Below, piece by piece: positions 21,864 to 43,037 of a stretch of DNA of 64,000 nucleotides (within the stretch, counting starts at the first letter, position 1; each line of letters opens with the position of its first letter). This DNA comes from a virus (lineage: Duplodnaviria > Caudoviricetes). The stretch lies in the IMG/VR virus record IMGVR_UViG_3300028186_000155; one strand, written 5' to 3'. The notes beneath the pieces are model-generated. The model was not told where the DNA came from. It was given only the letters and a program-made list of their open reading frames with translations, and ran no database searches. The position numbers and the translations under genes are program-made.

Positions 21864-22496
21864 ATGCCAATCCTAGCAGACGCAGTAGTTGAGACGATTG
21901 CAGACGATGAAGAGCGCTACAGGCAGTTAATCGCCAGCGGTGATCTGGAACAAGTGGGCGTTTACGCCTATTACAAAGCGGTTCCCTACAAGCTCTATTT
22001 GGGCACCGACCGAATGATCGGAAACAGTCTCTCGACCTGTCGCCTGCTGGTGCTGGCAAAGGGCGATGAATTCGTTTATAGCTGCTACTACAAAGTTGCA
22101 GAAAACGAATACTTTGGCCAACGTGCTGTGCAACTCGAAGTGCGTCAAGCCCCACACCTCCGGGGGCTGGCGCGCAACGTGATGCGCAATTATTTCCTGC
22201 TGAAATTCGACGCACTGCGCACCGATTTGTCGGGCACGCCGTGCGGTCGTCACATGTGGCAAGAGTTCTACAAAGAATTCCGCAAAGATTACCATTTCTA
22301 TCACGGTTTCGTGAATATCGACCTGCGCACTTCCCACGGTGACAACAATCAGGAAGCCGCGTGTCCCGACCGCGTAACGCACATCAAATCGCTGAAAACT
22401 GGCGTGGCTATGCGCGATGAACTGTGGCACGACAACAAAGCAGGCAACGTGACCGTTATTTATATTTCGAACAAACCACTTCGGGGCCAAGAATGA
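21864..22496 (+). CDS. hypothetical protein, possibly GNAT-like
   Basis: HLRGLARNV...LRTDLSGTPCGRHMW pattern. Confidence 0.5.
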   Translation: MPILADAVVETIADDEERYRQLIASGDLEQVGVYAYYKAVPYKLYLGTDRMIGNSLSTCRLLVLAKGDEFVYSCYYKVAENEYFGQRAVQLEVRQAPHLRGLARNVMRNYFLLKFDALRTDLSGTPCGRHMWQEFYKEFRKDYHFYHGFVNIDLRTSHGDNNQEAACPDRVTHIKSLKTGVAMRDELWHDNKAGNVTVIYISNKPLRGQE

Positions 22497-26244: not shown

Positions 26245-26417
26245 GTCCAGAATATACGCGCACATTTTTGTCTGGTGAATTGCTGGCTGGTAATCGCCGT
26301 TCTGATCCGCATGGTGTACGTTGGATCAAAGAACGAATCCCGTTTGAAAATCGGCAAAAGATGGCTCGCCAGATTGGCCGCTATTTGTCGGACGAACCGG
26401 CAACCTATCTCAAATAA
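26241..26417 (+). CDS. small hypothetical protein (58 aa; not in ORF track)
   Basis: ATGA overlap; ends just before a terminator. Confidence 0.5.
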   Translation: MSPEYTRTFLSGELLAGNRRSDPHGVRWIKERIPFENRQKMARQIGRYLSDEPATYLK

Positions 26418-26438
26418 CCCACTTAATCGTGGGTTTTT
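26416..26438 (+). terminator. probable terminator
   Basis: AACCCAC-TTAATC-GTGGGTT followed by Ts. Confidence 0.6.
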
Positions 26439-26468
26439 GTGTTTTCCCGCTAATTTAATGGTAAGTTT

Positions 26469-28075: not shown

Positions 28076-29401
28076 ATGGCCAACTACCGATATCTCGCAG
28101 AAACCGATATCGTGTTCGACAACGCAAACGACGAATACGATTTGCATATGGTGCAGGGTGATCGTTTTACCATGTACCGCCACGGTGGCGTTTACGTGGT
28201 CCAACACGAAGACGCACCGAACATTGTTTTCAAGCTGAAAATCCGTGAAGGCAACGCGCTGCACAACGCCAGTGAAGAGCTAATGAGCGTGCAGGTGGAC
28301 CCGGAAAATCCGCCGTACCTGCTGTTCAAGCCAAGCTTTGAAATGGTGCCGCTGCTTTACGATTATTTGAATGTCACTTATTTCAACAATGAGTGCCCGG
28401 TCGTAAAATTCGTGAAAAGCCGCAACCCTAAAGTGTGGGGTTTGGCGCAAGTTGAATTCTACAAAGGGCGCCCGGTCTATACGTTTCACGTGAACGAAAG
28501 TGCGATGGTTGACCGCGTGTTGTTCATCAACACCGTGGCCCATGAAATGATTCACATGCTGATGTTTTCGCGTGGCTACAAGCTGCACATGACCAACCCG
28601 CAACTGGCAGCTGATCACCTGCATGACGACCACGGCCCGCTGTTCCAGCAGGAAATGCATCGTCTGAATGCCAAAGGCTTCGGGATCATCATTGCCGCCA
28701 CGCACGAAGAGCGTAAGCGTGCATCGACCGATGATTTCTACGCAATTGTTGCGCAAGAAACGCAAAACAATTCGTACAAAAACTGGTACACGTGGTACAC
28801 CGATAAGCCGCTGAAATCGGAAGACGCCGACAACTTGGCGGCCACGCTCAAGGAAATGTACCCGCACAAGGAATACACGATCAAACTGGTGAAGACCAAA
28901 GATCGCCATTTCACTTACGGATCAAACCTGAAAGCGTCGAAAACTTTCCCGGCTTCCACGCTGAAAAAGACCTTCCCCGGCGCCGTCGATTACAAAGACT
29001 GCGAAGTCATGTACACCACGTATCTCTCGCCGTCGATTCACGTCGAACTGCCTGAATACAAAGACGTGCCGGATCAGTACGCGCTGCCACTTGATCGTTT
29101 CTACAAAGTGATGCGCAGCTACACCGACGACCGTTTGGTGCTCAAAGCCAAATGGCAGAAATTCCCGAGCAAAATGCTGTCCACACAAATCGACCAGAAA
29201 TTCAGTGTGTTGATTGGTCGCATGGGCCGGAACTCGATTGACGATGCGGATGTGGTAAACATCCTCAACGATATGCGTATGGCATACGACGAACGTTTCA
29301 CCTACAAGCAATACACCGATGCCATGCACGCATTCATCAAAAAATATGACCGGAAAGGTCTGCTGGCCGATTACGCAAAAATCATGAGGCTTATTGCCTA
29401 A
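28076..29401 (+). CDS. SprT-like zinc metalloprotease with an extra N-terminal domain
   Basis: YDYLNVTYF...HEMIH...HGPLFQ. Confidence 0.8.
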   Translation: MANYRYLAETDIVFDNANDEYDLHMVQGDRFTMYRHGGVYVVQHEDAPNIVFKLKIREGNALHNASEELMSVQVDPENPPYLLFKPSFEMVPLLYDYLNVTYFNNECPVVKFVKSRNPKVWGLAQVEFYKGRPVYTFHVNESAMVDRVLFINTVAHEMIHMLMFSRGYKLHMTNPQLAADHLHDDHGPLFQQEMHRLNAKGFGIIIAATHEERKRASTDDFYAIVAQETQNNSYKNWYTWYTDKPLKSEDADNLAATLKEMYPHKEYTIKLVKTKDRHFTYGSNLKASKTFPASTLKKTFPGAVDYKDCEVMYTTYLSPSIHVELPEYKDVPDQYALPLDRFYKVMRSYTDDRLVLKAKWQKFPSKMLSTQIDQKFSVLIGRMGRNSIDDADVVNILNDMRMAYDERFTYKQYTDAMHAFIKKYDRKGLLADYAKIMRLIA

Positions 29402-29986: not shown

Positions 29987-30636
29987 ATCAGTTTAAAAAG
30001 CGTGGCAAGTTTATCTGTCTCGAATCCATCGAAGCAGCTGGCAAAGGAACGGCCACCATTTACGTTGGGGAACACACGCAAAAGCACGGATTGCCATTCG
30101 TTTTCACCCGTGAACCGGGCGGCACGCCGTATGCTGAAGCGCTGCGCCGTTTGATGCTGGATCACGAAGGGAAAGTGCCTGCACTGTGCCAACCGTTTTT
30201 GTCGTATGCCTCGCGCATCCAACACACCGAAGCAGTCATTCGCCCGGCGCTGGATAGCGGCACCAACGTTTTCACCGAGCGTTATTATTGGTCGGCCCTT
30301 GCCTACCAAACGCGCACCTGTGAAGCGACCGAAGATATTCACCGGATGTGCGATGAATACGGCCACCTGATTAAACCTGATCTGACAATCCTTTTGGATT
30401 TGCCACCAGAAGTCAGTTACGAACGCATGCACCGGACCCGCGACAACCTCGATGAATTCGAGAAAAAACCTCTGTCCTATTTCGCTGAAGTGCGCGAAGC
30501 CTACCACGCGATGGTCGATGAATCGTGGGTGGTGGTCGATGCCCAGCAACCCCTTGAAGATGTGAAGCGTCAAATTCTGGCGCTGATCGATGAAATGGTG
30601 CCCCATGGAAATGACGTTAGCGCTGGCGGCCAGTGA
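29983..30636 (+). CDS. tmk: thymidylate (dTMP) kinase
   Basis: FICLESIEAAGKGT, TREPGGT, ERY..S..AYQ, PDLTILLDL. Confidence 0.9.
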   Translation: MNQFKKRGKFICLESIEAAGKGTATIYVGEHTQKHGLPFVFTREPGGTPYAEALRRLMLDHEGKVPALCQPFLSYASRIQHTEAVIRPALDSGTNVFTERYYWSALAYQTRTCEATEDIHRMCDEYGHLIKPDLTILLDLPPEVSYERMHRTRDNLDEFEKKPLSYFAEVREAYHAMVDESWVVVDAQQPLEDVKRQILALIDEMVPHGNDVSAGGQ

Positions 30637-31024
30637 GAAATATTTGCCTAACGGGCTAATGGTTCGGCTGGCCCGAAACTACCCGGACATTCGCGATCTT
30701 GGCGAGCGTCTGTTGCACCTGCCGCAAATCAAACGCGGCAACTTTATGCCGAATGTTCCTGAATCGGATGTGGCCCTAATCAAATACGCGGAAGCCAACA
30801 AACTTTCGCTGTATTACGGCTATCGGATCTACAAGGAAAAGGACAAGGATCAGCTGGAAGCCCTGCTGATGTGCGTCGATGATAAGCGGCGTGTGGTTGA
30901 ATCGGAAAAACGGCGGATGGACAACACCGCCTATTACGTGGGAATCCGTATCCCGCCTGACGATATTGCCAATCACCGCTACTTCAACAAATTCAACCGC
31001 ATGGACTACATCAAGGGCCTGTGA
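30605..31024 (+). CDS. hypothetical protein with MEMTLALAAS leader
   Basis: Shared N-terminal leader. Confidence 0.75.
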   Translation: MEMTLALAASEKYLPNGLMVRLARNYPDIRDLGERLLHLPQIKRGNFMPNVPESDVALIKYAEANKLSLYYGYRIYKEKDKDQLEALLMCVDDKRRVVESEKRRMDNTAYYVGIRIPPDDIANHRYFNKFNRMDYIKGL

Positions 31025-32709
31025 TGGAACTAACAATTGCCGCATCTACCCCGGCGCCGCCCGGCTCGGTTGACGCATTCCTCAAGCTGTTGATCGCCCT
31101 GTACAAGGCGCCCGAATACGATTACGGCACGAATTTCTGTGCCAAATTGCAGAAATGGAATGAGGCTGCCCAGCCGTTCCTTGATCAGTATTCGATCAAA
31201 CGCACATTCACCAAAACGCTCGGCCTGCTGGTCGATGGGGTGGATACGGCAGACGACAAGTATTCCTTGATCGTCAACGGCTGTTTCGATGCGCTGAAAA
31301 AGAAGAAAAAGTCATTCGACAAAAACACCAGCCTCAACAAACAGCAGCTTCAGTTCCTGACTGACATTCGTCTGGCCCGCAATGGCTCGGCAGCTGCGAC
31401 CAAAAGGCTGATGCAGAACGCGGGTTATTTCAAAGACTCGCATATCTCGAAAATGTTTTTGCATGAAGACGAACACACCGAAACCACGGCACAAGACGCA
31501 CTCTATCAGCGGCTGGAAGATCACGTAAAAACCCACGGCAAGGTCAAGGGTAACGTGATGCCAGAAACCACGCTGACCAAGTGGCGCGACAAGGCCAAGG
31601 AACTCGGTGCAAACCTCGCAGAGCACCAAGATTATTTGGATATGCGCCGCCAACGCAAAGCCATTGCTGATAAAGCGGTGGCCAACATTGTGCGAGCATC
31701 TGGCCAGCATACTTTGGACGTGGATTCGATTCGCGAACAAATGGGGAATATCCAGCACGATATTCCTGCATGGTTTGTTGGGCAGATGGACGACAAAGGC
31801 AACTACTACACCACCGATGGCCTACAGCTTTTGAATAAGCCAGTGGGCACCGGCACCATGAACAAAAACTACGTGCCCGGATCGACGGTTTACTATTGCC
31901 AGTATCAGGCGCCGTTCGCGCAAAGCACCACCAACGTTTACACCATCGCGGCCCGCACTGAAGGCCGGGTGCAGAGTTTCGGCGTGGTGCAGGGCATGCT
32001 GCCCGACCTGCAAAAATACGTGAAAAAGTGGTTGCCTGATTTGGCCAAGGGGCCGGGTTCGCTGCGTGGTGTGGCTGCTGCTGTGTGCGAAATCGTTTAC
32101 CAGACTTCGGCACGTATCGGCTCGACCCGTGGCAATACCGCTGGTGAAACCACCTACGGCATTTCTACCCTGTTGCGTCGTCACATTCTGTTCAATGATC
32201 AGCGTGCGATTTTCAAATATTTGGGCAAGAAAGCTGGCCAGCAAAAGCACGTGATCAAGTTCGAAGATCAGCGGACGCAAATGCTGCATAAAGCGATGGA
32301 CGAATTCCTACATGATTTGAAGCCAAAAGATTATGTGTTTACGTTCCGTGGCAAACCGCTGTCAAACTCACAGGTGAACGGCTACCTGCGCGAACTCGGA
32401 TTCCCTGAAGGGTTTAGTGTCCACAAATTCCGCAAGCTGCGCGGTACGGCCATGGCCAAAGTTATCATGGATAAATGCCCATTCGGTGCACGCGCCCGTG
32501 AAGCAGACGTAAACGGTTGGCTGGAAAAAGAATGCCTGAAAATCGGTAAAGAACTCGGCCACCTCGCGGGTGAAAAGGTGACGGCCACCACGGCAATCGC
32601 CAACTATATCGATCCATCGGTTTTCCTGCCGGTTTATGAGAAAACCAACACGAGGCCAAACAGCAAAATCCAGAAGGCTATCGACCTCGCGACAAAGAGC
32701 GCTGAATAA
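31024..32709 (+). CDS. type IB DNA topoisomerase-like protein with MELTIAAS leader
   Basis: Catalytic pattern ARIGS...TYGISTL..RH...YLGK...HKFRK...LGH...NYIDP. Confidence 0.8.
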   Translation: MELTIAASTPAPPGSVDAFLKLLIALYKAPEYDYGTNFCAKLQKWNEAAQPFLDQYSIKRTFTKTLGLLVDGVDTADDKYSLIVNGCFDALKKKKKSFDKNTSLNKQQLQFLTDIRLARNGSAAATKRLMQNAGYFKDSHISKMFLHEDEHTETTAQDALYQRLEDHVKTHGKVKGNVMPETTLTKWRDKAKELGANLAEHQDYLDMRRQRKAIADKAVANIVRASGQHTLDVDSIREQMGNIQHDIPAWFVGQMDDKGNYYTTDGLQLLNKPVGTGTMNKNYVPGSTVYYCQYQAPFAQSTTNVYTIAARTEGRVQSFGVVQGMLPDLQKYVKKWLPDLAKGPGSLRGVAAAVCEIVYQTSARIGSTRGNTAGETTYGISTLLRRHILFNDQRAIFKYLGKKAGQQKHVIKFEDQRTQMLHKAMDEFLHDLKPKDYVFTFRGKPLSNSQVNGYLRELGFPEGFSVHKFRKLRGTAMAKVIMDKCPFGARAREADVNGWLEKECLKIGKELGHLAGEKVTATTAIANYIDPSVFLPVYEKTNTRPNSKIQKAIDLATKSAE

Positions 32710-33071
32710 TGGAAATGATCCTTTCGCTGGCCAGCACCGGGCTAGTGCTGAAGCACGGCAAAATGTCGGAAATGAAATTGGGCGATTCCACGATTACCTA
32801 CCGTTACACCGATGAAGAATTTCGGCCTCAAGGTTCGTTCGTAGAAATCCAGAAGCTGCATACACCTGCCGACAAACGCGGATCAGGCAGTGCACGCAAA
32901 CTGATGGAACATTTCCTGAACCTGACGGATCGTGCAGGCCTCGAAGTGATGCTCGAAGCAGAGCCTATGGATGCCCAAACCAAGGGCGCCAAACTGGTGA
33001 AGTTTTACAAATCGTTCGGGTTCAAATCCAAAGGGCGCGGCACCACCGCGATGATAAGAAAAGCCCAATAA
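32709..33071 (+). CDS. GNAT-family acetyltransferase with MEMILSLAS leader
   Basis: KRGSGSARKLM...LVKFYKSFGF. Confidence 0.8.
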   Translation: MEMILSLASTGLVLKHGKMSEMKLGDSTITYRYTDEEFRPQGSFVEIQKLHTPADKRGSGSARKLMEHFLNLTDRAGLEVMLEAEPMDAQTKGAKLVKFYKSFGFKSKGRGTTAMIRKAQ

Positions 33072-33139
33072 AACACTACCCTCGTAGTAACATGGGAAGA
33101 GGAAGCCCCAAATGCACACCTAACGAAGAGAATTAAGAA

Positions 33140-33868
33140 ATGAAAGTAAATGGCGACCTTGTAATTGTTGAGGGCGGTGTGATCAAAAATCTCACGCTGC
33201 CATCCGACTCGGTTTTCCCTGCCAACGGGAACCGGGGTGAATTGTTCTCGGTGCACGGTCACACCGATGCAACGAATTACCCCGATGGCCTCTACCACCA
33301 CGACGGGACCGCATGGAGAAATATTGCACCTCTGGCAAAGGTGAAAGCGTTAATCGAGGCCGCTGGTTTGGGGGCTTCTGTAGTCACGCAGTGGCGCACT
33401 TTGTACAAAGTCGCAACAGGCATCAGCAGCCAAGCGGCGGGTACTTTTTGGTTCGTGCCTGATATCGGGCCAATTGCCGTAGCCAGTGCATTTTCGACCA
33501 CGGTAATGTCAAGCTTTTGGTATGACCCAGCGGATTATCCAGCTGGCACCAAATTCCGTTTGAATCTGATTTACAACCAGAACAGCGTGGCTTCTAACCC
33601 AATTGATTTTACGCTGGGGCTGCGCAAGGTTTTGCGGCCTGCTGGTAGCGGCGGCACCACTACGCAGCTGATTTATGCGGCAGATACTGCTGATGTTTCC
33701 AGCATCGTGGTAAATGGCCCAATCCCGATTAAAACGCAGGCACATTTGCTGTCTGCTGAATTCACGATGCCGACCGAAGCCGGTCAGTATTGCTTCGTGA
33801 TTACGTTGAGCGGCGCGAACGTTACGTCGGCAACTCACTACGACCTTAGCCTACAGGCTAAATACTAG
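33140..33868 (+). CDS. putative fibre/decoration protein, paralogue 1
   Basis: Shares IVEGGVI.NLT, RGELF, SSFWYDPADYP.GTKFRL, EFTMP.EAGQYCF and LQAKY with 33880. Confidence 0.7.
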   Translation: MKVNGDLVIVEGGVIKNLTLPSDSVFPANGNRGELFSVHGHTDATNYPDGLYHHDGTAWRNIAPLAKVKALIEAAGLGASVVTQWRTLYKVATGISSQAAGTFWFVPDIGPIAVASAFSTTVMSSFWYDPADYPAGTKFRLNLIYNQNSVASNPIDFTLGLRKVLRPAGSGGTTTQLIYAADTADVSSIVVNGPIPIKTQAHLLSAEFTMPTEAGQYCFVITLSGANVTSATHYDLSLQAKY

Positions 33869-33879
33869 GAGGTGATCCG

Positions 33880-34596
33880 ATGGATGTTCACGGATTAGAT
33901 ATTGTTGAGGGTGGCGTTATTGAAAACCTCACGGTTGATTCCGGCGCCACACTTCCGGCTAATGGTGCACGCGGTGAATTGTTTGTTTCTGTAGGAAATG
34001 CCGATCAGGATTTGCACCCGGACGGCCTGCATTTTCACGACGGTGCGGCTTGGGATAACCTGCCTACTGTTGCGCAAGTCGAAAGCCTGATTAACGACGC
34101 GTTAGGGGCCGGTAGCGAAAAGTATTTCCAGACGGTATTCAACATTCGCACCCTTGTTGGTGCCAACGGCCTCGGTAATTACTGGGCAGTATCCGATAGC
34201 GCGGTGCTGGCAGTTAGTGGCGCGTTCAACGCAATCGTAATGTCAAGTTTTTGGTATGACCCGGCAGATTATCCGCTGGGTACAAAATTCCGACTTTCTG
34301 TTACGGCCAACCAAAGCAATACGGCGTCGTCCATGATTGTCGATGTTGGACTCTGTAAGGTTTTGCGTCCGTCAACTACGGGCGGGGCCACCACGCAAAT
34401 GATTTATACGCCGGATACGCCCGACGTGGCGGCTGTAGTGGTCCCTGCACTGCTGAGCAAGACACAAACGAACTATTACACCGAAGAATTTACGATGCCG
34501 TCCGAAGCCGGGCAGTATTGTTTCCACCTCAACCTGCGCAACACCAACGGCAACGCGGGCACGCATTACGAAATGCGCCTGCAAGCCAAATATTAA
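33880..34596 (+). CDS. putative fibre/decoration protein, paralogue 2
   Basis: Tandem paralogue of 33140; AGGAGG RBS. Confidence 0.7.
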   Translation: MDVHGLDIVEGGVIENLTVDSGATLPANGARGELFVSVGNADQDLHPDGLHFHDGAAWDNLPTVAQVESLINDALGAGSEKYFQTVFNIRTLVGANGLGNYWAVSDSAVLAVSGAFNAIVMSSFWYDPADYPLGTKFRLSVTANQSNTASSMIVDVGLCKVLRPSTTGGATTQMIYTPDTPDVAAVVVPALLSKTQTNYYTEEFTMPSEAGQYCFHLNLRNTNGNAGTHYEMRLQAKY

Positions 34597-34606
34597 GGAC
34601 TAATTC

Positions 34607-34768
34607 ATGGGCATGGCAGACGAATTTCCTTTGCACAATACACAGACCCCACATCGCCAATATGCAGGCCCTCCCGGTGAATCCGGTTTGAAACCGCAGT
34701 CTGCCCTGCCGTGGTACGTTCAACACAACATGCGCCAAGAGCGCCGCAAGCAAAAAGGAAAACACTGA
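34607..34768 (+). CDS. small hypothetical protein (53 aa; not in ORF track)
   Basis: AAGGA RBS; TGATG coupling to the next gene. Confidence 0.5.
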   Translation: MGMADEFPLHNTQTPHRQYAGPPGESGLKPQSALPWYVQHNMRQERRKQKGKH

Positions 34769-35154
34769 TGGAAATGCAACTTGCATTGGCCGCAGTAGCC
34801 ACCACGGATTTCGTTGATCGGCGCCGCAAGCAAAAGATTGGGGATCTGCGAGAACAGCTGAAGGCGCTCCGAGCCAAAATGGCGACCTTGAAAGAAAAGG
34901 GCGTACACGAAAGCAAAGAAAACGAACGCACGGCCCCGGTGCGCAAGATCCATACGCATGAGCGCCAGCACGCCTACCGCGCCACGCGCAATCCTGAATA
35001 TCAGGCGATGAAAGAACAGGAAATCCAGTTGAAAGCACAGTTGGATGCCCTGCGTGAAGATCACAAACAGCACCACGCCAAAAAGATGGCCGAAATTCAC
35101 GCTCGCCACAAAAAGCGTGTGCAAGATCGCAAAAACCGCAAGGACCAAGAATAA
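34768..35154 (+). CDS. basic coiled-coil protein with MEMQLALAA leader
   Basis: Shared leader; AAGGA RBS. Confidence 0.75.
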   Translation: MEMQLALAAVATTDFVDRRRKQKIGDLREQLKALRAKMATLKEKGVHESKENERTAPVRKIHTHERQHAYRATRNPEYQAMKEQEIQLKAQLDALREDHKQHHAKKMAEIHARHKKRVQDRKNRKDQE

Positions 35155-35331
35155 ATGATCCGTCCAATTCGCATGTCCGATTTGCACAAAATTTACGAAA
35201 ACGAAACGCCCGAAGAAAAAACCGCTCGCCTCAAGGCAAACAAAGAGCGCACCGAACGCATGCTGGCCAGCTGGAAAGAATTCAGCGAAAAGCATCCCGA
35301 AATCGCAAACAAAATGGTGTGTGCCGCCTAA
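35155..35331 (+). CDS. small hypothetical protein (58 aa; not in ORF track)
   Basis: Exactly fills the gap; TAATG coupling. Confidence 0.6.
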   Translation: MIRPIRMSDLHKIYENETPEEKTARLKANKERTERMLASWKEFSEKHPEIANKMVCAA

Positions 35332-35753
35332 TGAAAACTGAACTCGCTGTTGCATCCGTTCCAACCCAACCCGTTTACGGCGTAGGCACCGAAGTTTGGT
35401 TCCACCCGGCGATTCGCACCCTCAATTTCGGCGCGCTGCAAGACGTGGCGATCCGTGCAAAAGTCATGGGCGTAACCGTGCGCGAAACCCAAATCCAGTA
35501 CGAACTGGCGATGGATGTTTCCAGTTCGAAAATTGGTGATTATTACGAGGCCATTCCGCTGGCGCAAGTGGACTCTTTCTTCGTGCTGACCGAAGACCAT
35601 TTGAAGGAATTGAATGGGCTGGGCGAAGAGGATGTTTACAAGTCGTATGCGTCGGCTGTGCCGAGCACCAGCACCGTGCGCCGCTTCGTACAACGCTATC
35701 AGGAAATCCAAAACGATTTGCCAGCACTGCGCCGGGAACTCGGGCGTGTCTGA
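35331..35753 (+). CDS. hypothetical protein with MKTELAVAS leader
   Basis: Leader variant. Confidence 0.7.
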   Translation: MKTELAVASVPTQPVYGVGTEVWFHPAIRTLNFGALQDVAIRAKVMGVTVRETQIQYELAMDVSSSKIGDYYEAIPLAQVDSFFVLTEDHLKELNGLGEEDVYKSYASAVPSTSTVRRFVQRYQEIQNDLPALRRELGRV

Positions 35754-35997
35754 CGTTACGTGGATTGCCATAATCCTCAATCTGCCGATGCTTTGCCTAC
35801 TGGTCTACGGCCTGCGTGTTCTGCACAAAGAGCAAAGTTCGGCAATCCATTTCCATTCGGATTTCTGGCGTGACGTAACTGAGGCCGGGCGCCTCGTTAT
35901 GTTCCATCCGAATAAATTGGTTAAGGGGCCTGTCGGTCCCCAAGGCCCACAAGGCCCGCAGGGCGTCGTAGGCACACCGCTGCAAAGGAAAAAATAA
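35746..35997 (+). CDS. small membrane protein with a short collagen-like GPx run
   Basis: Hydrophobic N-terminal helix; GPVGPQGPQGPQG. Confidence 0.5.
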   Translation: MSDVTWIAIILNLPMLCLLVYGLRVLHKEQSSAIHFHSDFWRDVTEAGRLVMFHPNKLVKGPVGPQGPQGPQGVVGTPLQRKK

Positions 35998-36458
35998 TGG
36001 AAATGATGCTGGCTCTAGCGAGCGTGCAGGTGCCAAAGCTGCTGTATCATGGCACCAAAAAGAAGTTTACGAAATTCTCGGAATATCGCCCGGCCTTTTT
36101 CACCTCGGTCAAAGCGTATGCCGAAGGTTACGGCCACATCATCATGAAGGTGCATGTAGATATCAAACGTATTTTTGACACGCGCCACGACAAACGCGCC
36201 GTCGAGATTTACAATGATTATTTCCTGCCTTCGGGACTAGCTCGCCAAGGCGCCAAGCACATCAAACTGGGCGAACCAGTTTCAATGCACCACGCCGATG
36301 AATTGTGGTCCTATCTCGCTATACCTGAATATCCCGAACCGCATTACGACGGCATTTTGGTTTACGAGCAAATGGCAATTGCCGATCATGAACCCCTCAA
36401 AGGTGCGGAATTCGCGTTTGTTCCGCTGCACCCTGACCAAATTCATCTGGTGAAATAA
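35997..36458 (+). CDS. ADP-ribosyltransferase-like protein with MEMMLALAS leader
   Basis: LYHGT...FFT...YA..YG...YDGI pattern of phage ART-fold domains. Confidence 0.6.
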   Translation: MEMMLALASVQVPKLLYHGTKKKFTKFSEYRPAFFTSVKAYAEGYGHIIMKVHVDIKRIFDTRHDKRAVEIYNDYFLPSGLARQGAKHIKLGEPVSMHHADELWSYLAIPEYPEPHYDGILVYEQMAIADHEPLKGAEFAFVPLHPDQIHLVK

Positions 36459-37375
36459 TGGAAATGCAACTGGCCCTAGCGGGTTCCAGTGTGCTCTATC
36501 ACTTGATCCTGATGGAGCACGCAATCACCGCACTGAAAAACGATAAATTCAAACTGGCAGCCACCAATGAAGGCGTAGAGGCAGAATTCGGTGATGCTCA
36601 ATATTTCTTGAGCCTTGCCCGTTCTAAGCACTCGGATTACTTCAAGAAAGAAGCTGGCGAATCCCACATCATTTTCGTGCTCGACGGGCAGAAGATGAAC
36701 GCGAATTACCAGATTAAAGCCGTTGACTACTGGGCTGACCAAAAGCACATAACCAACGACGAAAAAGAAGATCGTTTGTTCGCCAACAAAATGTACATCC
36801 CGTGCATTCGCTACGTGAAAGAAATCCACTTCATGAAAGAGGGTGGGAAGTGGAAAGAAAACGATTCGTTGACGCTGGCGCTGCTGGCCAAGCGCAACAA
36901 GATTCAGCTGTTCCAGTATGACGACCTAACGGCCTTCATGAATCTGGATAAGCGCAAGACAATCAAGCTTGAAGTTTCCGACAAAAAGAAACGCAAGTTT
37001 GGCACCACCGAATGGAAGCCGCAGGCGGATCACGGACTTGAGGCGTGGTACGATGCATCGCAGATCGTCTTCCACGGTGACGAAAACCGCGCTGCCAAAT
37101 TCATGCAAAACGCCCGGCATAAAGAGCAAAGCAAGGCCTATCGTGATATTGCGCGCAGCATCGAAAAGCTTAACCGGTTTACCGATGTGGGGACGCAGGC
37201 GGTTAGCGATTTCAACCGGTTGGCACGTTATGCCAAGTTCCCTGTGGAAATGGATAACCTCGAAAAGATCAAACGGGTGAAACGTCGCCTGCGTGTTGAT
37301 ACCAAAGGCTTTTTGGATTATGTGCGTAAGCGCTGGATGACCAGCGAAGAGCGCGAACTGCACGGTTTGGAGTAA
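36458..37375 (+). CDS. putative ART-fold protein with MEMQLALAG leader
   Basis: LYH...FLSLARS...FVLDG...EKEDR (H-S-ExE arrangement). Confidence 0.55.
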   Translation: MEMQLALAGSSVLYHLILMEHAITALKNDKFKLAATNEGVEAEFGDAQYFLSLARSKHSDYFKKEAGESHIIFVLDGQKMNANYQIKAVDYWADQKHITNDEKEDRLFANKMYIPCIRYVKEIHFMKEGGKWKENDSLTLALLAKRNKIQLFQYDDLTAFMNLDKRKTIKLEVSDKKKRKFGTTEWKPQADHGLEAWYDASQIVFHGDENRAAKFMQNARHKEQSKAYRDIARSIEKLNRFTDVGTQAVSDFNRLARYAKFPVEMDNLEKIKRVKRRLRVDTKGFLDYVRKRWMTSEERELHGLE

Positions 37376-37380
37376 ACAAA

Positions 37381-39294
37381 ATGGAAATGATGCTGGCTCT
37401 GGCCGCCGTACCCATGAGCATTGCCCGGCCTCTGGTGAAAAACTGGAACCGTAACGGGCTGGGTGTGCAGGTAATCAAACGTTTCCTGCCAAAGAACAAA
37501 AAGCAGAAGAAAAACACCTATCGCCTCTATCTGCCGATCAAACCAACCAAACAAAAGATCAAAATTCCTGAGCCGATCCTGCATGCGCTGTCGTCCGTTG
37601 GTTACAGCGTTGACGATTACGTGACGGGCATTGCAGTTGATTCTACCGGCAAACGTCGGATGCGAATCGGCAAGCTGTTGAAAGATCAGCAGTTGCTCAA
37701 AGAATTCATGAATGATCCGCAACGCGCTGCACACAAAGACGAATTCACCTGCGTTATTTCCTGCCACCCGTATGACGTGCTGACCATGAGCACCGGGCGC
37801 CGCTGGGATATGACCAGTTGCATGCGCCTCGATCAACCGGGGAAATCGCGTGGCGGTGTAAACCAGCACATCGTGGCCAACGATGTAGCAGAAGGCACAT
37901 TGGTTGCCTATGCAATTTCACCAAACGATACCAATATCAACAAGCCCCATGCGCGCCTGCTGATCAAGCCTTTTGTTGGCCCGAACGGAAGCATTTTGTT
38001 CCGCGTTGAAACCGCTGTTTATGGCACGCCTATTCCCGGTTTCCAAGCAACGGTTAGCCGGTGGCTGCGCCAAGTAAACAAGGGTGCGGAAAGCGGTTTG
38101 TATCATTTGATCGAAGGCCTGTACGATGACGGTGTGGGCAAAGTGCACGCGCATGTCGAGTGGGAAACTGCGAAGGATAAAACGGCAACTCTCCGATCCT
38201 TTGTGAAAGGTGCCTATGCGCAAAACCAAGCGCTTTATGAATTGCTGCTGACCGATAAACGCTGGCTCGATTATTGGGTTGCGCACATCGAAGAAATTTA
38301 CGGATCAGCCGATGAAGCTGCGTTCGAAATGAGCATGTTCTATGGCAACGTTCGCGGCAAAGGTACGACCGGCAAAGCGCGCATTACCGCTAAGCAATTC
38401 GCGGCCCTGATCGACAAGCACCGTGACACTGTGCCAATCCTCGATCTGGTGGAAGTTCTGGCCCCGTTGGAATGGCGCCCCGAATTGCTGAAGGCTTCGA
38501 AATTCCTGCAAGAGGTTGTAGAAGAATCCTATTCGTTCGATCACTTCAACAACGAACCACAACCAGCGGCCTACGTGCTGAATCACGCGGCTTATTATGA
38601 CTCGCGCCTGCTGGGCCTGATCGAAGATAAACCTGAACCCGCCAAGGCCGTTAGCGTAATGCGTGGGCTGATGGCAGGCCTGTATAAACTCACGCCGGAA
38701 TGGTTGAATTCTACGCTGCCGGGTGCCGTGGAATTGCGTGAGCGCGTTGGTTTCCTGCTGGGCATGCTGTATCAGGCCCGTGACGTGAACATTCGCGGCG
38801 ACCGTGAATTGTTGATCAAACTGGCAAATAAACTGAAGGTCGATTATTACTGGACCGAGGACAAGCAGAAATTCCTCGACAAATTGCGCTGGAACAGAAT
38901 TTTCGACCGCAACACCACCATGAAAGCCGAAAGCATGCTGTGTGCACTCGACAATTCGTGGCCTGCACAAGATCCGTATTTGATCGTGAATGCCGACGAT
39001 TTCGTGCTCGAAAATCAGGAAGTCTTCAAACGTCTGACCGACCTCGGTAGCACCCTGATGCAAAGCGCCATGTGGACCGTATTGAATTCGGTTCTGCATC
39101 GTAAGAGCTTGAGTGCCGCAACGTGGCGCCAGCAATTCCCGTGGACTATCAAGTTCATCGAGGCTGTGGCCAAGGGCAATGCGGGTGAACGTGACGAAGG
39201 ACAGATGAAACGCGCGCAATATTTCGTGAACGATCTGAAAAAGAACGACGACGAAATGGACGAAATCATGCGGCAACTAGGCGAAGATTTTTAA
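37381..39294 (+). CDS. large protein, paralogue A, with MEMMLALAA leader
   Basis: N-terminal ~250 aa shared with 39307 (ISCHPYD..MSTGR.WD.TSCMRL...AEGTLVAY). Confidence 0.8.
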   Translation: MEMMLALAAVPMSIARPLVKNWNRNGLGVQVIKRFLPKNKKQKKNTYRLYLPIKPTKQKIKIPEPILHALSSVGYSVDDYVTGIAVDSTGKRRMRIGKLLKDQQLLKEFMNDPQRAAHKDEFTCVISCHPYDVLTMSTGRRWDMTSCMRLDQPGKSRGGVNQHIVANDVAEGTLVAYAISPNDTNINKPHARLLIKPFVGPNGSILFRVETAVYGTPIPGFQATVSRWLRQVNKGAESGLYHLIEGLYDDGVGKVHAHVEWETAKDKTATLRSFVKGAYAQNQALYELLLTDKRWLDYWVAHIEEIYGSADEAAFEMSMFYGNVRGKGTTGKARITAKQFAALIDKHRDTVPILDLVEVLAPLEWRPELLKASKFLQEVVEESYSFDHFNNEPQPAAYVLNHAAYYDSRLLGLIEDKPEPAKAVSVMRGLMAGLYKLTPEWLNSTLPGAVELRERVGFLLGMLYQARDVNIRGDRELLIKLANKLKVDYYWTEDKQKFLDKLRWNRIFDRNTTMKAESMLCALDNSWPAQDPYLIVNADDFVLENQEVFKRLTDLGSTLMQSAMWTVLNSVLHRKSLSAATWRQQFPWTIKFIEAVAKGNAGERDEGQMKRAQYFVNDLKKNDDEMDEIMRQLGEDF

Positions 39295-39306
39295 GGAAAC
39301 CTTTCA

Positions 39307-42060
39307 ATGAAAACAGAAGTGGCATTGGCCGCAGTGTCCATGAAGACGGCGCTGAAATACCGCCGTAACTGGAACAAAGATGCACCCGCCGTACACCTGC
39401 TGCAATCCATGATGCCGAAAGGGCCGGGCCGCAAAGGCTACCGCCTGTATTTCGATATCGGTCAACAGCACCGCACCCACTTTACGATCCCGCCCGCTGT
39501 GCGTTCAGCACTGCAACGCGCCGGTTACGTGGCCACTGATTACCTCGCAAAGAAATGCGTAAAAATCAGTGACAAAGAGCAAAAGAACGTGACCAACATC
39601 GGCAAGGTGATTGCCAAAGATCCGCATGCGAAAGCAGCGTTCGATAATGACCCACAATTGCAGAATACCAAACAGGGTTCGTTGCAGGTGGTGATCAGCT
39701 GTCACCCATACGACATTATCGGCATGAGCACCGGTCGCGATTGGGATTTGACAAGCTGCATGCGACTGGCCGATGGTGAGCACCGTTTGAATCCCGGCAT
39801 TAACCAACACTACGTCAAAAACGATGTGGCTGAAGGTACGCTGGTGGCCTACGTGGTTTCCTCCGACGACCAGAATATTCAGCGGCCTAAAGCGCGCTGT
39901 TTGCTGAAGCCATTTATCAACGCGAAGGGTGACGTTTTGTATCGTCGCGAAACCCGCGTTTACGGCAACCCTGTGCCCGGTTTTGATTTGGTGATTGCAC
40001 GTTTCCTGCGCCAAGCCAATAAAGACCTGCCGTCCGACCGATTCCATATGGCAGAAACGCTGTATAACGACGGCATGGGCACCGAAATGTTCCATGAGCA
40101 AAGTGACGAAAATAACTATTCGGCACACGATGCACTGATGGACCCGGAACTGGCGCTGGATTATATTCAGCAGCGGGTGTTGGTTCTGAAAAACTCTGAT
40201 GATTCAGAAGCGAAAAAGCAGATTGCCCAACAGATTTATCAGTATCTCGATTCCAATGAAGCCGAGAAACTGCACGATACGCAGATTACAGAAATCGTTG
40301 ATGCCCTTAAAGGCGTCAAGGAATTTGTGGATGAACTCAACAACCAATCCACCATGGGCGCGGGCCTGCGTCCGCTGCCTGCACGTATCGGTCGTGCACT
40401 GGGCGCCTTCGATGGGTTTAAAGACCTCGACCAAAAAACCGTGAGCAAATTACCGCTGAGTTTGGTAAATTCGCTGAGCATCGGCGGCGGTGCCGTTATG
40501 GAGGAAATGCTGGGACGCTTGCAGGCAATGACCGAGCACAGCAACCTTGCAACAAACTCAAAAACCTTCCGCATGATTATGACCGGTGTGTATCCAGTAC
40601 CGCCAAAAGAAGTGCTGGAGAAATACCAGAAGGTTGGCCACGCGCTGTATTCGATGGCTTCGGCTGCACGTCACATGCTGTTGCTTGACGACGATTCGAT
40701 GCAAAAAGTTGCCTACGAAATTCTCGATATGGATCTGAGTTTCGAAGAGCCTTTGCGCACAGAAGAAATGGCCGATCTGGTTTATCAGGCCGGTGGCACG
40801 GGTCTGTCGATTTGCTACAACATCGATAACCTTGGCCGTCTCGATTCCAACACGTTGTGGGTTCCACCGGTCGGCGTTGTGGCCAACACCCTGACCCGTA
40901 AAGCTTTCCGCCTGCTGGATAAATACGATAAAGATGGCCGGGTGGAAATGTGGGTTGGTGAAATCAAGAAAAACATGGTTGAGCAGTTGCTGTACAGCCC
41001 TGAAAAACTGCGCGATTACAAAGATTTCCTGCCACGCCTGCGCGATTGGTTGAACGAGAACACCGAAGCGGTGCAGACTCTGGTTTCTCAATGGAACCCG
41101 AAACAGGTTAAAGCGTTGGCAGAATTCCACCTGCCATCCGTAATGCACCTGAACGATAACGGCATCATTTTCGGTTCGCAAACTGCCGACACTATCAACG
41201 GTATTTTGCCGTCGCTGGTTGCGTGGGATGGCGAGCCGCTGATTCCAGAATCGCAGGATATGGTCGAGATTTGCCAGCTGATGGTTGCAGCCGGTAATCT
41301 GCTGGAAAAACCGCTGCATTTGGAAAAGAAATTCGATCCAGAAACGTTCGAAGAGCAAGACGTGGTGGACGTTGCCGAGAACTTCCAAACCGGTATGGGC
41401 CGCCGTCGCCACCAGCGCACCACCACGTTTGGCGCCCTGCTGAACAAAATCGAAATCAACGGCGAAAAACCTGATATCACGTGGCGCATGGAACTGGTTG
41501 AGCACAACGGTGCCGATGGCATTGGTTGGGTTCCACCGGAAAAACTGCCGCAACTGATCCGCAAATTGCTGGCGATGGTTGCCAACATGGATTCGTTGGA
41601 TACCGCGATTCTGGCCCTGACCCGTTTGGTTCACAATACCAATATGATTCACCCTGTGGACGTACAGGAAGAATTGAATAATCGGATGGACATGGGCTTT
41701 ATCCAATATCCAGACGAAGACGAAATGGATGCAGCGGCCTACGAAGAGGCATTGGAAGCCTACGAAGAAAACCGCCAGCGCATCGAAGACGAACTGACGG
41801 CACAGCGCGAAAAAACTCTGGACCTCAACGAACAATTGCTGCTGGTTCTGGAAAAGGTTGCCGACTTTGTTGGCATGGATGATTTCGATGAAAGTCTGGA
41901 TGATGACGAAGCTGAAGCTATGCCATTCGACGTGAAAACTCCGAACATTCGCGAAAATCAATGGGCGGATCAAGCCGATGAAGTCCACGGTCTGCGCCGT
42001 GAGATTTACGACGCGCAACAAACGCGCCCGGATGAATTGCAGGAAATGCGGGACGAATAA
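39307..42060 (+). CDS. large protein, paralogue B, with MKTEVALAA leader and acidic C-terminus
   Basis: Paralogue of 37381; AAGGA RBS. Confidence 0.8.
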   Translation: MKTEVALAAVSMKTALKYRRNWNKDAPAVHLLQSMMPKGPGRKGYRLYFDIGQQHRTHFTIPPAVRSALQRAGYVATDYLAKKCVKISDKEQKNVTNIGKVIAKDPHAKAAFDNDPQLQNTKQGSLQVVISCHPYDIIGMSTGRDWDLTSCMRLADGEHRLNPGINQHYVKNDVAEGTLVAYVVSSDDQNIQRPKARCLLKPFINAKGDVLYRRETRVYGNPVPGFDLVIARFLRQANKDLPSDRFHMAETLYNDGMGTEMFHEQSDENNYSAHDALMDPELALDYIQQRVLVLKNSDDSEAKKQIAQQIYQYLDSNEAEKLHDTQITEIVDALKGVKEFVDELNNQSTMGAGLRPLPARIGRALGAFDGFKDLDQKTVSKLPLSLVNSLSIGGGAVMEEMLGRLQAMTEHSNLATNSKTFRMIMTGVYPVPPKEVLEKYQKVGHALYSMASAARHMLLLDDDSMQKVAYEILDMDLSFEEPLRTEEMADLVYQAGGTGLSICYNIDNLGRLDSNTLWVPPVGVVANTLTRKAFRLLDKYDKDGRVEMWVGEIKKNMVEQLLYSPEKLRDYKDFLPRLRDWLNENTEAVQTLVSQWNPKQVKALAEFHLPSVMHLNDNGIIFGSQTADTINGILPSLVAWDGEPLIPESQDMVEICQLMVAAGNLLEKPLHLEKKFDPETFEEQDVVDVAENFQTGMGRRRHQRTTTFGALLNKIEINGEKPDITWRMELVEHNGADGIGWVPPEKLPQLIRKLLAMVANMDSLDTAILALTRLVHNTNMIHPVDVQEELNNRMDMGFIQYPDEDEMDAAAYEEALEAYEENRQRIEDELTAQREKTLDLNEQLLLVLEKVADFVGMDDFDESLDDDEAEAMPFDVKTPNIRENQWADQADEVHGLRREIYDAQQTRPDELQEMRDE

Positions 42061-42125
42061 AACGGTAATTTGATTGTATATGCCGGGACCGCGTGTCCCG
42101 GTTTCAATCATGCAGAGGATTCGAA

Positions 42126-42548
42126 ATGGAAGTTTGGATAGCACTCGCTGCCGAAGATATTAGCGCCCGGATTTCCGACGGTGTGCGGCAGATTATGAAA
42201 CGCAGCTACACTTCGCTTTTCGCCAACGTTTTCACGCAAGTTTACGATATCGAAGATCGCAAGAAATCCGAAATCAAACAGGTGCGTGAAATGGATAAAG
42301 ACCTGTCGCCGGTTCTGGTGACGGTTGAAGACCAGAAGCACCAGAAACTGACTTTCGTTTTTGCTGTGCCGAACATTGGCAACGTGCTGCATATTCCGAA
42401 CCCGGCCCAAGGTTACATTTTGCACGATAACAAAGTGCAGGAATTCGATTTGGAATCGCGGGTAATCAAGGTGCGCGGTATCGACTACGCGATTGCAGCA
42501 GCAGTCGCCCGGCGAGCGCCGAACTTCCTCGATTTTGGTGCACGTTAA
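42126..42548 (+). CDS. hypothetical protein with MEVWIALAA leader
   Basis: Leader; GAGGA RBS. Confidence 0.75.
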   Translation: MEVWIALAAEDISARISDGVRQIMKRSYTSLFANVFTQVYDIEDRKKSEIKQVREMDKDLSPVLVTVEDQKHQKLTFVFAVPNIGNVLHIPNPAQGYILHDNKVQEFDLESRVIKVRGIDYAIAAAVARRAPNFLDFGAR

Positions 42549-42766
42549 TGGAAGTGCTGATTTCATTGGCAAAGGCGGGTAGTGCCGAACGGTGGGACGA
42601 AATCCCTGAGACGCGTTTTGATAACGCAAAGGAAGGGCGACCACTGAAAGCCACCGGAAAGAAAAAGCGTAGAAAAATCCGTCTGAAAAGCGGATTGATC
42701 GACACGCCAATCGAAGGGGCCGAGACGCACTATCTCGACATTCAGGATACGGTTCGTTGTCCGTGA
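42548..42766 (+). CDS. small basic protein with MEVLISLA leader
   Basis: Leader; TAATG coupling. Confidence 0.7.
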   Translation: MEVLISLAKAGSAERWDEIPETRFDNAKEGRPLKATGKKKRRKIRLKSGLIDTPIEGAETHYLDIQDTVRCP

Positions 42767-42773
42767 GGAAACC

Positions 42774-43037
42774 ATGCCGAAATTAACAATTAAAGGGATT
42801 GCTAAGCAACCCGAAAATGTCGAAAACCCACAACACGAAGGCACGCGCCTGACGAAGTGGGAAGACGACGACAAAATGATCAAGAAAATGCCACGCTCGA
42901 AAAAGAAAACCTTGCTGAAGGATCGCACGCGTTCCGGGGCACAGGGAGCAATGGCATTCCCTCATGATTACATTGAAAAAATGCACGTGTCTAAATCGAA
43001 TTGGTTGGGCCGTCGTGAGCGGGGACGCGACCGATGA
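42774..43037 (+). CDS. small basic hypothetical protein
   Basis: GAGGA RBS. Confidence 0.65.
   Translation: MPKLTIKGIAKQPENVENPQHEGTRLTKWEDDDKMIKKMPRSKKKTLLKDRTRSGAQGAMAFPHDYIEKMHVSKSNWLGRRERGRDR

What the first reader, a model, noticed from the sequence alone, without database searches (positions are those of the whole stretch)
30605..42766. Shared N-terminal 'MEMxLALA' leader on at least 11 unrelated proteins: candidate head-packaging and maturation tag for an injected effector set
Seen in sequence: leaders MEMTLALAAS (30605), MELTIAAS (31024), MEMILSLAS (32709), MEMQLALAA (34768), MKTELAVAS (35331), MEMMLALAS (35997), MEMQLALAG (36458), MEMMLALAA (37381), MKTEVALAA (39307), MEVWIALAA (42126), MEVLISLAK (42548). 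Consensus is M-[EK]-h-x-[LIV]-[AS]-[LV]-A-[ASG]. Except for the 37381/39307 paralogue pair, similarity stops right after the leader. The codons vary synonymously (ctggctcta, cttgcattg, ctggcccta), so conservation appears to be at the protein level. The leader is too short and too acidic for a Sec signal. Cargoes include topoisomerase IB, GNAT, two ART-like proteins, two large paralogues and basic proteins. Established: T4 internal proteins and Alt are packaged into the head; the IPs use a ~10-aa capsid-targeting sequence removed by the prohead protease. Inference: this is an independent modular address tag that loads host-takeover enzymes into the head for co-injection with the DNA, and could be used for protein cargo loading.
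Basis: partly seen in the sequence, partly recalled or inferred. Interest (0 to 1): 0.92.

Follow-up and report, generated by a model that had tools for sequence, protein, structure and literature searches.

The report
Head-protease-matched packaging tag on phage proteins
Eleven otherwise unrelated proteins of a Lu11-like Pseudomonas jumbo phage begin with the same 8-residue tag, which ends in the likely cutting site of the phage's head-maturation protease, so it most likely marks enzymes that are loaded into the capsid, as phage T4's capsid-targeting sequence does with a different tag and protease.

Summary
All 11 leaders are present at the stated coordinates. A six-frame scan finds 12 matches against about 0.1 expected. 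Conservation is at the protein level: each conserved position uses 5-7 different codons.

The window is a fragment of a Lu11/HRDY3-like jumbo phage. The tag varies by lineage: MEMxLALA here and in HRDY3, MKIQLAVA in Lu11, MxILVSLS in Dickeya and Erwinia relatives.

Its last four residues (hydrophobic, A/S/G, x, A/S) recur in relatives in three places:
- at the expected capsid-protein maturation site, about 20% from the N-terminus;
- near the protease's own N-terminus (HRDY3);
- many times in the scaffold proteins.

Two cargo families give a natural swap test. Homologues in phages with a T4 gp21-type protease carry a leader ending in L/I-x-E at the same junction. Homologues of the large paralogues are found by mass spectrometry in virions of RsoM2USA and Atu_ph07.

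Best reading: a protease-clipped, T4-CTS-like head-incorporation tag that belongs to a different protease family. Cleavage, targeting sufficiency and injection remain untested.

The scan has found T4-type (L/I-x-E) leader sets many times on other DNA. This is a non-T4 variant.

The parts
30605..31024 (+). 139-aa protein of unknown function; leader MEMTLALA at 30605-30628
   Evidence: orthologues in HRDY3, Lu11 and PaBG gp86; no Pfam or PHROG family
31024..32709 (+). Type IB topoisomerase, 561 aa; leader MELTIAAS at 31024-31047 (the ORF can also start at GTG 31021)
   Evidence: PF01028 at 48.9 bits against a cut-off of 23.7; 23 of the 24 proteins listed carry an MxI[SA][IL]A|A-type leader
32709..33071 (+). 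120-aa GNAT-like protein; leader MEMILSLA at 32709-32732
   Evidence: weak GNAT Pfam hits below the cut-offs; the HRDY3 orthologue is annotated as GNAT
34768..35154 (+). 128-aa basic protein (net charge +12); leader MEMQLALA at 34768-34791
35331..35753 (+). 140-aa protein; leader variant MKTELAVA at 35331-35354
   Evidence: HRDY3 orthologue has MKTEIAIA
35997..36458 (+). 153-aa ART-PolyVal-like protein; leader MEMMLALA at 35997-36020
   Evidence: PF18760 at 28.9 bits, E 2e-6, below the 31.2 cut-off
36458..37375 (+). 305-aa protein with a DarT/Tpt1-like ADP-ribosyltransferase fold; leader MEMQLALA at 36458-36481
   Evidence: AF2 pLDDT 90; Foldseek hits to DarT at E 5e-4, prob 1.0, and to Tpt1/KptA; 1024 homologues carrying either [AS]-x-[AS] or L/I-x-E leaders
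37381..39294 (+). 637-aa protein, paralogue 1, with a conserved 250-aa N-domain; leader MEMMLALA at 37381-37404
   Evidence: homologues are in the RsoM2USA and Atu_ph07 virions
39307..42060 (+). 917-aa protein, paralogue 2 (acidic C-terminal part); leader MKTEVALA at 39307-39330
42126..42548 (+). 140-aa protein; leader MEVWIALA at 42126-42149
   Evidence: HRDY3 orthologue has MELMLALA
42548..42766 (+). 72-aa protein; leader MEVLISLA at 42548-42571
   Evidence: the HRDY3 orthologue has the same leader
26416..26460 (+). Context, weak evidence: a terminator-like hairpin followed by a CTAATTTAATGG motif. This may be the start of the transcription unit that runs through the leader cluster.
   Evidence: in HRDY3 the same CTAATTTA motif sits just upstream of the leader-bearing gene in the head module

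Best explanation
The 8-residue leader (M, E/K, hydrophobic, x, L/I/V, A/S, L/V, A, followed by a small residue) is an N-terminal propeptide. Its last four residues form the recognition site of this phage group's own head-maturation protease (PHROG 18299; no Pfam family; not T4 gp21). By analogy with the T4 capsid-targeting sequence, the proposed sequence of events is:
1. The tag brings each cargo into the assembling prohead core.
2. The protease cuts after the final Ala, when it also cuts the scaffold, the capsid protein and itself.
3. The mature enzymes stay in the head and probably enter the host with the DNA. These are topoisomerase IB, a GNAT-like protein, two ART-fold proteins, two large paralogues and several small proteins.

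Shown here: the tag, its restriction to lineage and locus, its match to motifs in head proteins, and its exchange for L/I-x-E tags in phages with a T4-type protease.

Inferred: cleavage, targeting, ejection.
For: 1. Tag and statistics.

2. Lineage-specific tags on orthologous and extra genes. HRDY3 has MEMMLALA, Lu11 has MKIQLAVA on about 13 genes, and Dickeya JA11 and Erwinia Yoloswag have MxILVSLS. Leader identity between unrelated genes of one genome is 0.52-0.69, against 0.11-0.38 between lineages.

3. The same motif occurs in the head proteins of relatives.
- Capsid protein: I-A-T-A|S at residues 69-72 of 368 (HRDY3), V-A-T-A|S (Lu11), V-A-A-A|E (PaBG), V-S-E-S|H (JA11). These sit 18-22% from the N-terminus. 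PaBG's capsid protein is reported to lose about 20% of its mass on maturation (PMC7412058).
- Protease N-terminus (HRDY3): I-A-I-A|S.
- Scaffolds, hydrophobic-A-x-A counts against residue shuffles: 9 vs 2.2, 17 vs 3.8 and 11 vs 2.9, each P < 0.001. [LI]-x-E is not enriched there. The reverse holds in the core protein of RsoM2USA, which has a gp21-type protease: [LI]xE 18 vs 7.6.

4. Leader-bearing genes also sit inside the head module, next to the protease gene.

5. Swap test. Of the 120 closest homologues of the 637-aa protein, 105 are scored by the script as ending in [AGS]-x-[AS]|; most of the 13 left unclassified are anchor errors. Of 120 homologues of Atu_ph07 gp394, 101 end in hydrophobic-x-E|. 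MAFFT places the junction in the same column, and the median leader length is 8 in both sets. Atu_ph07 and RsoM2USA encode Peptidase_S77. HRDY3, PaBG and Yoloswag do not. The 305-aa family shows the same split.

6. Virion mass spectrometry of homologues. RsoM2USA ORF132 is among the 10 main virion bands (PMC8504454). Atu_ph07 gp394 was detected with 18 unique peptides and 41% coverage (PMC6102473 Table S5).

7. AF2 leaves the first 4-5 leader residues at low confidence, ahead of well-folded domains.

8. T4 precedent: the 10-aa CTS, the 7-residue propeptide of the ART Alt, and a cleavage-type site near the gp21 N-terminus (PMC9026906).
Against: - There is no mass spectrometry or N-terminal sequence for any leader-bearing protein of this phage group. 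PaBG's 14-band proteome lists only gp83 from the equivalent cluster, not the topoisomerase.
- The protease, scaffold and capsid genes are not on the 195-kb fragment. The link therefore runs through HRDY3 (78% nt identity) and more distant relatives.
- The Ala-to-Ser covariation is not clean. JA11's scaffold is enriched for both hydrophobic-A-x-A and hydrophobic-S-x-S.
- A four-residue motif in Ala-rich helical scaffolds may recur for structural reasons that residue shuffles do not control.
- The protease's fold and catalytic type could not be checked.
- Nothing tested here distinguishes targeting from mere clipping, or shows ejection into the host.
Confidence: 0.75

Rival explanations
1. The leader is only a protease-removed propeptide. 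It might block the N-terminus or the activity of the enzymes until head maturation. Incorporation into the prohead would then depend on other parts of each protein, so the 8-mer is not an address tag.
For: Only the last four residues match the motif seen in the scaffold, capsid protein and protease. Leader length varies from 6 to 20 residues among homologues, while the [AGS]-x-A end is constant.
Against: Positions 2-4 are also uniform within a genome and differ between lineages. Eleven unrelated folds are unlikely each to hold a separate targeting determinant. In T4 the N-terminal part of the CTS carries the targeting (PMC9026906).
Confidence: 0.15
2. The leader is a recognition tag for another enzyme or for another cellular location. 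Examples would be an N-terminal modification by a maturase, as in RiPP-like systems. It would then have nothing to do with the capsid.
For: An earlier scan case (e1-127136) showed that a shared phage leader can be tied to a radical-SAM enzyme rather than to capsid sorting. One tagged gene here is itself GNAT-like.
Against: No maturase-type gene was seen among the scanned neighbours. The motif recurs in head proteins. The tag switches to L/I-x-E exactly in phages with a gp21-type protease. Homologues are virion proteins.
Confidence: 0.04
3. The conservation lies at the nucleotide level, for example a translation-initiation or coupling element around ATGGAAATG. It would not be a peptide signal.
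For: Six leaders share ATGGAAATG. Several genes are translationally coupled (stop codon overlapping the ATG) and lack a clear Shine-Dalgarno sequence.
Against: Positions 5-8 use 5-7 different codons each. Relatives keep the residue pattern with other codons and other residues at positions 2-4. The motif also occurs inside head proteins.
Confidence: 0.02
4. It is a minimal secretion or lipoprotein signal cut by host signal peptidase at A-x-A.
For: A-x-A followed by a small residue resembles the signal peptidase I site.
Against: The leader has eight residues, Glu at position 2, no positively charged n-region, no hydrophobic core of 10 or more residues and no lipobox Cys. The cargoes are cytoplasmic-type nucleic-acid enzymes.
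Confidence: 0.01

Closest known systems
Phage T4 capsid-targeting sequence (CTS) of internal proteins IPI/IPII/IPIII, and the N-terminal propeptide of Alt, both removed by prohead protease gp21 (PMC9026906)
   Same: A short N-terminal tag (8 aa here; 10 aa for the CTS and 7 aa for Alt) on several unrelated proteins. It ends in the resident head protease's cutting motif. The same motif occurs in the scaffold, the capsid protein and near the protease's own N-terminus. The cargo includes an ADP-ribosyltransferase. Homologous cargo families are shared with T4-type jumbo phages, and the cut junction sits at the same alignment position.
   Different: The motif is hydrophobic-[A/S/G]-x-[A/S] followed by a small residue, not L/I-x-E. 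The protease is PHROG 18299 with no Pfam match, and Peptidase_S77 is absent from complete relatives. The cargo set is larger and richer in enzymes (topoisomerase IB, GNAT-like, two ART folds). No experiment exists for this group.
Propeptides and ejection proteins of phiKZ-like giant phages (phiKZ gp175, SPN3US gp245; PMC10052503, PMC5694885; the motif is quoted from my own knowledge and was not re-read here)
   Same: A jumbo phage head that packages many proteins, which are processed at a short motif by an essential prohead protease.
   Different: Those phages cut after Glu (small-x-E), and their propeptides are longer and more varied. A uniform 8-mer on a gene cluster is not described for them.
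Polyvalent proteins of phages and conjugative elements (Iyer et al. 2017, cited in PMC7824862)
   Same: A similar domain repertoire (ART-PolyVal, GNAT), thought to be delivered with the DNA. Homologues of the 305-aa ART domain also occur inside proteins of 900-1700 aa.
   Different: Here the domains are separate genes, each with its own tag, instead of one giant multidomain protein.

Membership tests
T4-type CTS / gp21 propeptide | Short N-terminal peptide shared by several otherwise unrelated proteins | tested here: met
   11 genes; no similarity after the leader except for one paralogue pair
T4-type CTS / gp21 propeptide | Leader ends in L/I-x-E, the gp21 cleavage motif | tested here: not met
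   Leaders end in [AS]-[LV]-A. [LI]xE is depleted in the scaffolds of relatives.
T4-type CTS / gp21 propeptide | Genome encodes a Peptidase_S77 (PF03420) prohead protease | tested here: not met
   No match in the fragment, nor in complete HRDY3, PaBG or Yoloswag. The same search finds it in RsoM2USA and Atu_ph07.
T4-type CTS / gp21 propeptide | Leader alone is sufficient to load a foreign protein into the head | not testable with these tools
   Needs fusion experiments during infection
Prohead-protease propeptide (general) | The same motif lies at the capsid-protein maturation site and recurs in scaffold proteins | tested here: met
   Capsid-protein sites lie 18-22% from the N-terminus, against a reported 20% mass loss in PaBG. 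Scaffold enrichment has P < 0.001. The sites themselves are predicted, not sequenced.
Prohead-protease propeptide (general) | A head-maturation protease gene is present in the genome | tested here: inconclusive
   Present in all five relatives tested (phrog_18299). Not on the 63%-complete fragment that holds the window.
Prohead-protease propeptide (general) | Tagged proteins are present in virions and are N-terminally trimmed | tested here: inconclusive
   Homologues of one cargo family are in the RsoM2USA and Atu_ph07 virions. There are no data for this group and no N-terminal peptides.
Sec/Tat/lipoprotein signal peptide | Positively charged n-region, hydrophobic core of about 10 or more residues, and a lipobox Cys for lipoproteins | tested here: not met
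   Eight residues, Glu at position 2, no Cys
Leader recognised by a dedicated maturase (RiPP-like) | A modifying enzyme gene is linked to the tagged genes | tested here: inconclusive
   None among the genes scanned with Pfam or PHROGs. Not every neighbour was scanned.
ADP-ribosyltransferase fold (cargo 36458-37375) | ART core fold with a conserved His in an h-h-Y-H-x-T strand | tested here: met
   Foldseek to DarT at E 5e-4, prob 1.0, and to Tpt1/KptA. H15 is nearly invariant in 61 homologues. Activity was not tested.

The most novel reading that the evidence does not exclude
Short N-terminal address tags may be interchangeable modules that match whichever head protease a phage has. The same cargo families (the 250-aa N-domain family and a DarT-like ART family) move between unrelated jumbo-phage lineages by swapping only about 8 residues: [AGS]-x-A| in place of L/I-x-E|. 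A previously uncharacterised protease family (PHROG 18299) would have Ala/Ser-directed specificity. If this holds, the packaged and probably injected proteome of uncultured jumbo phages could be read from sequence alone.
Probability: 0.6. Interest if true: 0.7.

Novelty: new variant of a known kind. Interest (0 to 1): 0.6.

Why it matters
- It predicts, for a whole jumbo-phage group (Lu11, HRDY3, PaBG, and the Dickeya and Erwinia relatives), the cutting motif of a head protease that has no Pfam family.
- It gives a sequence-only list of proteins likely carried inside the capsid. The list includes a type IB topoisomerase and DarT-like and PolyVal-type ADP-ribosyltransferases, which are candidates for first-minute host takeover or counter-defence.
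- The natural tag swap between protease families suggests that the T4 CTS principle is general and modular.
- It gives simple predictions that can be tested in cultured phages (Lu11, HRDY3).
- The principle itself is not new: T4 established it, and this scan has already found many T4-type examples.

Tried and rejected
- Head genes inside the window. PHROG scans of 5.9-20.7 kb and of the region upstream found replication genes, the terminase and the portal, but no capsid protein or protease.
- Pfam Phage_capsid (PF05065) found nothing in four genomes.
- My guess that JA11 gp172 was the capsid protein was wrong. The capsid protein was found with PaBG gp80.
- The Lu11 genome paper is not held.
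- Protease classification failed. There is no Pfam family and no PDB sequence match with a 5-sequence profile. hhalign against two gp21-type proteases was not significant.
- The N-domain of the large paralogues has no Foldseek PDB match. VIA-align gives only weak GNAT-fold resemblance, Z 4-6.2.
- GAA at codon 2 (9 of 9) is explained by genome codon usage.
- The promoter and terminator scan found no more sites than shuffles did.
- No sequencing-run search was made.
Full report
**What the window is.** The window is part of a 194,917-base viral contig that CheckV rates about 63% complete. The stretch of the finding (window 30000-43000) is 78.6% identical in DNA to Pseudomonas phage HRDY3 (313,683 bp) over the aligned half, and the window is more distantly related to Lu11. 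These phages belong to the group that the PaBG paper calls "Lupandier": Lu11, PaBG, NCTB, the Dickeya JA/AD1 phages and the Erwinia Y3/Yoloswag/Alexandra phages (PMC7412058). Upstream of the finding lie a sigma factor, SSB, UvsX, a helicase, the large terminase (17835-20738) and the portal (22424-24451). Downstream lie baseplate and tail genes.

**The observation.**
- All eleven leaders are at the stated coordinates.
- A six-frame regex scan of the whole fragment gives 12 hits. Ten are in this 12-kb stretch on one strand, and each opens an ORF.
- About 0.1 hits are expected by chance.
- A degenerate DNA pattern for the 8-mer finds 9, 9 and 7 sites in the fragment, in HRDY3 and in Lu11. The reversed-pattern control finds none.
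- Conservation is at the protein level: positions 5-8 each use 5-7 different codons.
- With the leader removed, only the 637-aa and 917-aa proteins resemble each other.

**Relatives.** HRDY3 keeps the tag on the orthologues and on three further genes. The tag is specific to each lineage:

| Phage | Leader |
|---|---|
| This window, HRDY3 | M-E-M-x-L-A-L-A |
| Lu11 (about 13 genes) | M-K-I-Q-L-A-V-A |
| Dickeya JA11, Erwinia Yoloswag | M-x-I-L-V-S-L-S |

Mean identity between leaders of unrelated genes within one genome is 0.52-0.69. Between lineages it is 0.11-0.38. A tag that is uniform within a genome but drifts between genomes points to a trans-acting reader that co-evolves with it.

The capsid protein, scaffold and protease genes are not on the fragment, so I examined them in relatives. 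HRDY3's head module holds a protease (PHROG 18299, no Pfam family), two acidic scaffold-like proteins, a 247-aa virion protein and the capsid protein.

The motif hydrophobic-A-x-A followed by a small residue appears in three places.
- **Capsid protein.** The sites are I-A-T-A|S at residues 69-72 of 368 (HRDY3), V-A-T-A|S (Lu11), V-A-A-A|E (PaBG) and V-S-E-S|H (JA11). All lie 18-22% from the N-terminus. PaBG's capsid protein is reported to lose about 20% of its mass on maturation.
- **Protease N-terminus (HRDY3).** The site is I-A-I-A|S at residues 21-24.
- **Scaffolds.** The motif occurs 9, 17 and 11 times, where residue shuffles give 2.2, 3.8 and 2.9.

The T4 motif [LI]-x-E is not enriched in these scaffolds, and in two of them it is depleted. 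The core protein of RsoM2USA, which has a gp21-type protease, shows the reverse pattern. Two leader-bearing genes also sit inside the head module next to the protease gene, and their leaders follow the A-type or S-type of their lineage.

One caveat applies. JA11's scaffold is enriched for both the A-type and the S-type motif, so the Ala-to-Ser covariation is only partial.

**A natural swap experiment.** The 250-aa N-domain shared by the two large paralogues is widespread.
- Of its 120 closest homologues, an automated rule scores 105 as ending in [AGS]-x-[AS]|. Most of the 13 left unclassified are anchor errors.
- Of 120 homologues of Atu_ph07 gp394, 101 end in hydrophobic-x-E|.
- MAFFT puts the junction in one and the same column, directly before a conserved A-[VL] that opens the mature domain. 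The median leader length is 8 in both classes.
- Atu_ph07 and RsoM2USA encode Peptidase_S77. HRDY3, PaBG and Yoloswag do not.
- A second, unrelated cargo family (the 305-aa protein, with 1024 homologues) shows the same split just ahead of its conserved L-Y-H-x-T strand.

So the same cargoes carry whichever tag fits the resident protease.

**Packaging.** Two published virion proteomes contain homologues of the large paralogues. RsoM2USA ORF132 is one of the ten main virion bands (PMC8504454). Atu_ph07 gp394 was found with 18 unique peptides and 41% coverage (PMC6102473 Table S5). PaBG gp83, encoded next to its topoisomerase IB, is also a virion protein. However, it is not homologous to the proteins here, and its leader is unclear.

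**Cargo.**
- Topoisomerase IB passes Pfam's cut-off.
- The GNAT call is weak.
- The 153-aa protein hits ART-PolyVal just below the cut-off.
- The 305-aa protein folds with pLDDT 90, and its N-domain matches DarT and Tpt1/KptA (E 5e-4, prob 1.0).
- The N-domain of the large paralogues folds well (pLDDT 88.8) but has only a weak GNAT-like resemblance.
- In both models the first 4-5 leader residues have low confidence.

**Comparison with the known.** T4's CTS is the first 10 residues of IPIII. It targets foreign proteins into the head and is cut by gp21. Alt, an ADP-ribosyltransferase, loses 7 N-terminal residues. gp21 has a cleavage-type site near its own N-terminus (PMC9026906). The system here works like that but fails two defining features of the T4 family, namely the motif and the protease family. 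It is therefore a new variant rather than a member. I found no paper that describes a cleavage motif or a leader for this phage group. The scan has reported T4-type leader sets many times on other DNA. One shared leader turned out to be tied to a radical-SAM enzyme, which I considered as a rival here.

**What remains inferred.** Actual cleavage, the sufficiency of the 8-mer for targeting, and ejection into the host are all untested. The protease fold could not be examined. A CTAATTTA motif precedes both the transcription unit that holds the cluster (26450) and the leader gene in HRDY3's head module. This is only a weak hint of co-regulation.

Noticed in passing
window 37381-38190 and 39307-40120 (N-domains): The 250-aa N-domain of the two large paralogues is a very widespread jumbo-phage family with no Pfam model: 165 and 464 hits at E <= 1e-5 in two searches. 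It is a virion protein in RsoM2USA and Atu_ph07. T4-type homologues often carry DUF4116 (PF13475) downstream. The AF2 model is confident but resembles only GNAT folds, and weakly (Z 4-6.2).
   Followed up: partly
homologues of window 36458-37375 (P0315, P0320, P0328, P0342, P0359): Some homologues of the DarT-like protein have a third kind of N-terminal extension, ending in [AS]-G just before L-S-x-[IV]-L-Y-H (for example ..VLAG|LS). This may be the cutting site of yet another head-protease type.
   Followed up: no
window 33140-33868 and 33880-34596: Two paralogous genes of 242 and 238 aa without the leader sit inside the cluster. HRDY3 annotates no genes of that size at the equivalent place (its genes after the GNAT gene are 58-141 aa). 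They have no PHROG family.
   Followed up: partly
window 35754-35996: The 243-base 'gap' between two leader genes is open in one frame and ends in a short collagen-like G-P-x run (GPVGPQGPQGPQG). HRDY3 and Lu11 have small collagen-like genes (MDI[FY]ENGV...) in the same cluster.
   Followed up: no
P0252-P0254 (homologues of window 31024-32709): In some relatives the topoisomerase IB is 683-687 aa. Its N-terminus resembles that of the small leader-bearing gene that precedes the topoisomerase in HRDY3 (L001 5017-5424), so it may be fused to a homologue of that gene and carry a single leader.
   Followed up: no
L026 1408-2298 and alignment A1 (proteases of five relatives): The PHROG 18299 protease has invariant His149 and Ser203, 54 residues apart. 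It also has an invariant C-x-x-C ... C-x-H cluster that looks like a zinc-binding insert. It has no Pfam or PDB sequence match.
   Followed up: partly
window 28076-29401 vs PaBG gp89 (L008 15446-16792): PaBG's orthologue, which that record annotates as SprT-like, starts with MELAIA|S. The orthologue here, and those in HRDY3 and Lu11, start MANYRY... without a tag. Tags can therefore be gained or lost on a single gene.
   Followed up: no
window 7123, 12358, 24473 (+), 51949 (-); 24448, 26450 (+): There are two recurrent upstream motifs. ACTGTAAA[TC]A is the motif annotated in Lu11 as a middle/late promoter. CTAATTTA also lies upstream of head-module genes in HRDY3.
   Followed up: partly
L014 21750-23725 vs L016 5348-7252: The scaffold-like protein is one gene of 634-664 aa in Lu11, JA11 and PaBG. 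In HRDY3 it is split into two genes of 322 and 328 aa at the poly-acidic linker.
   Followed up: no
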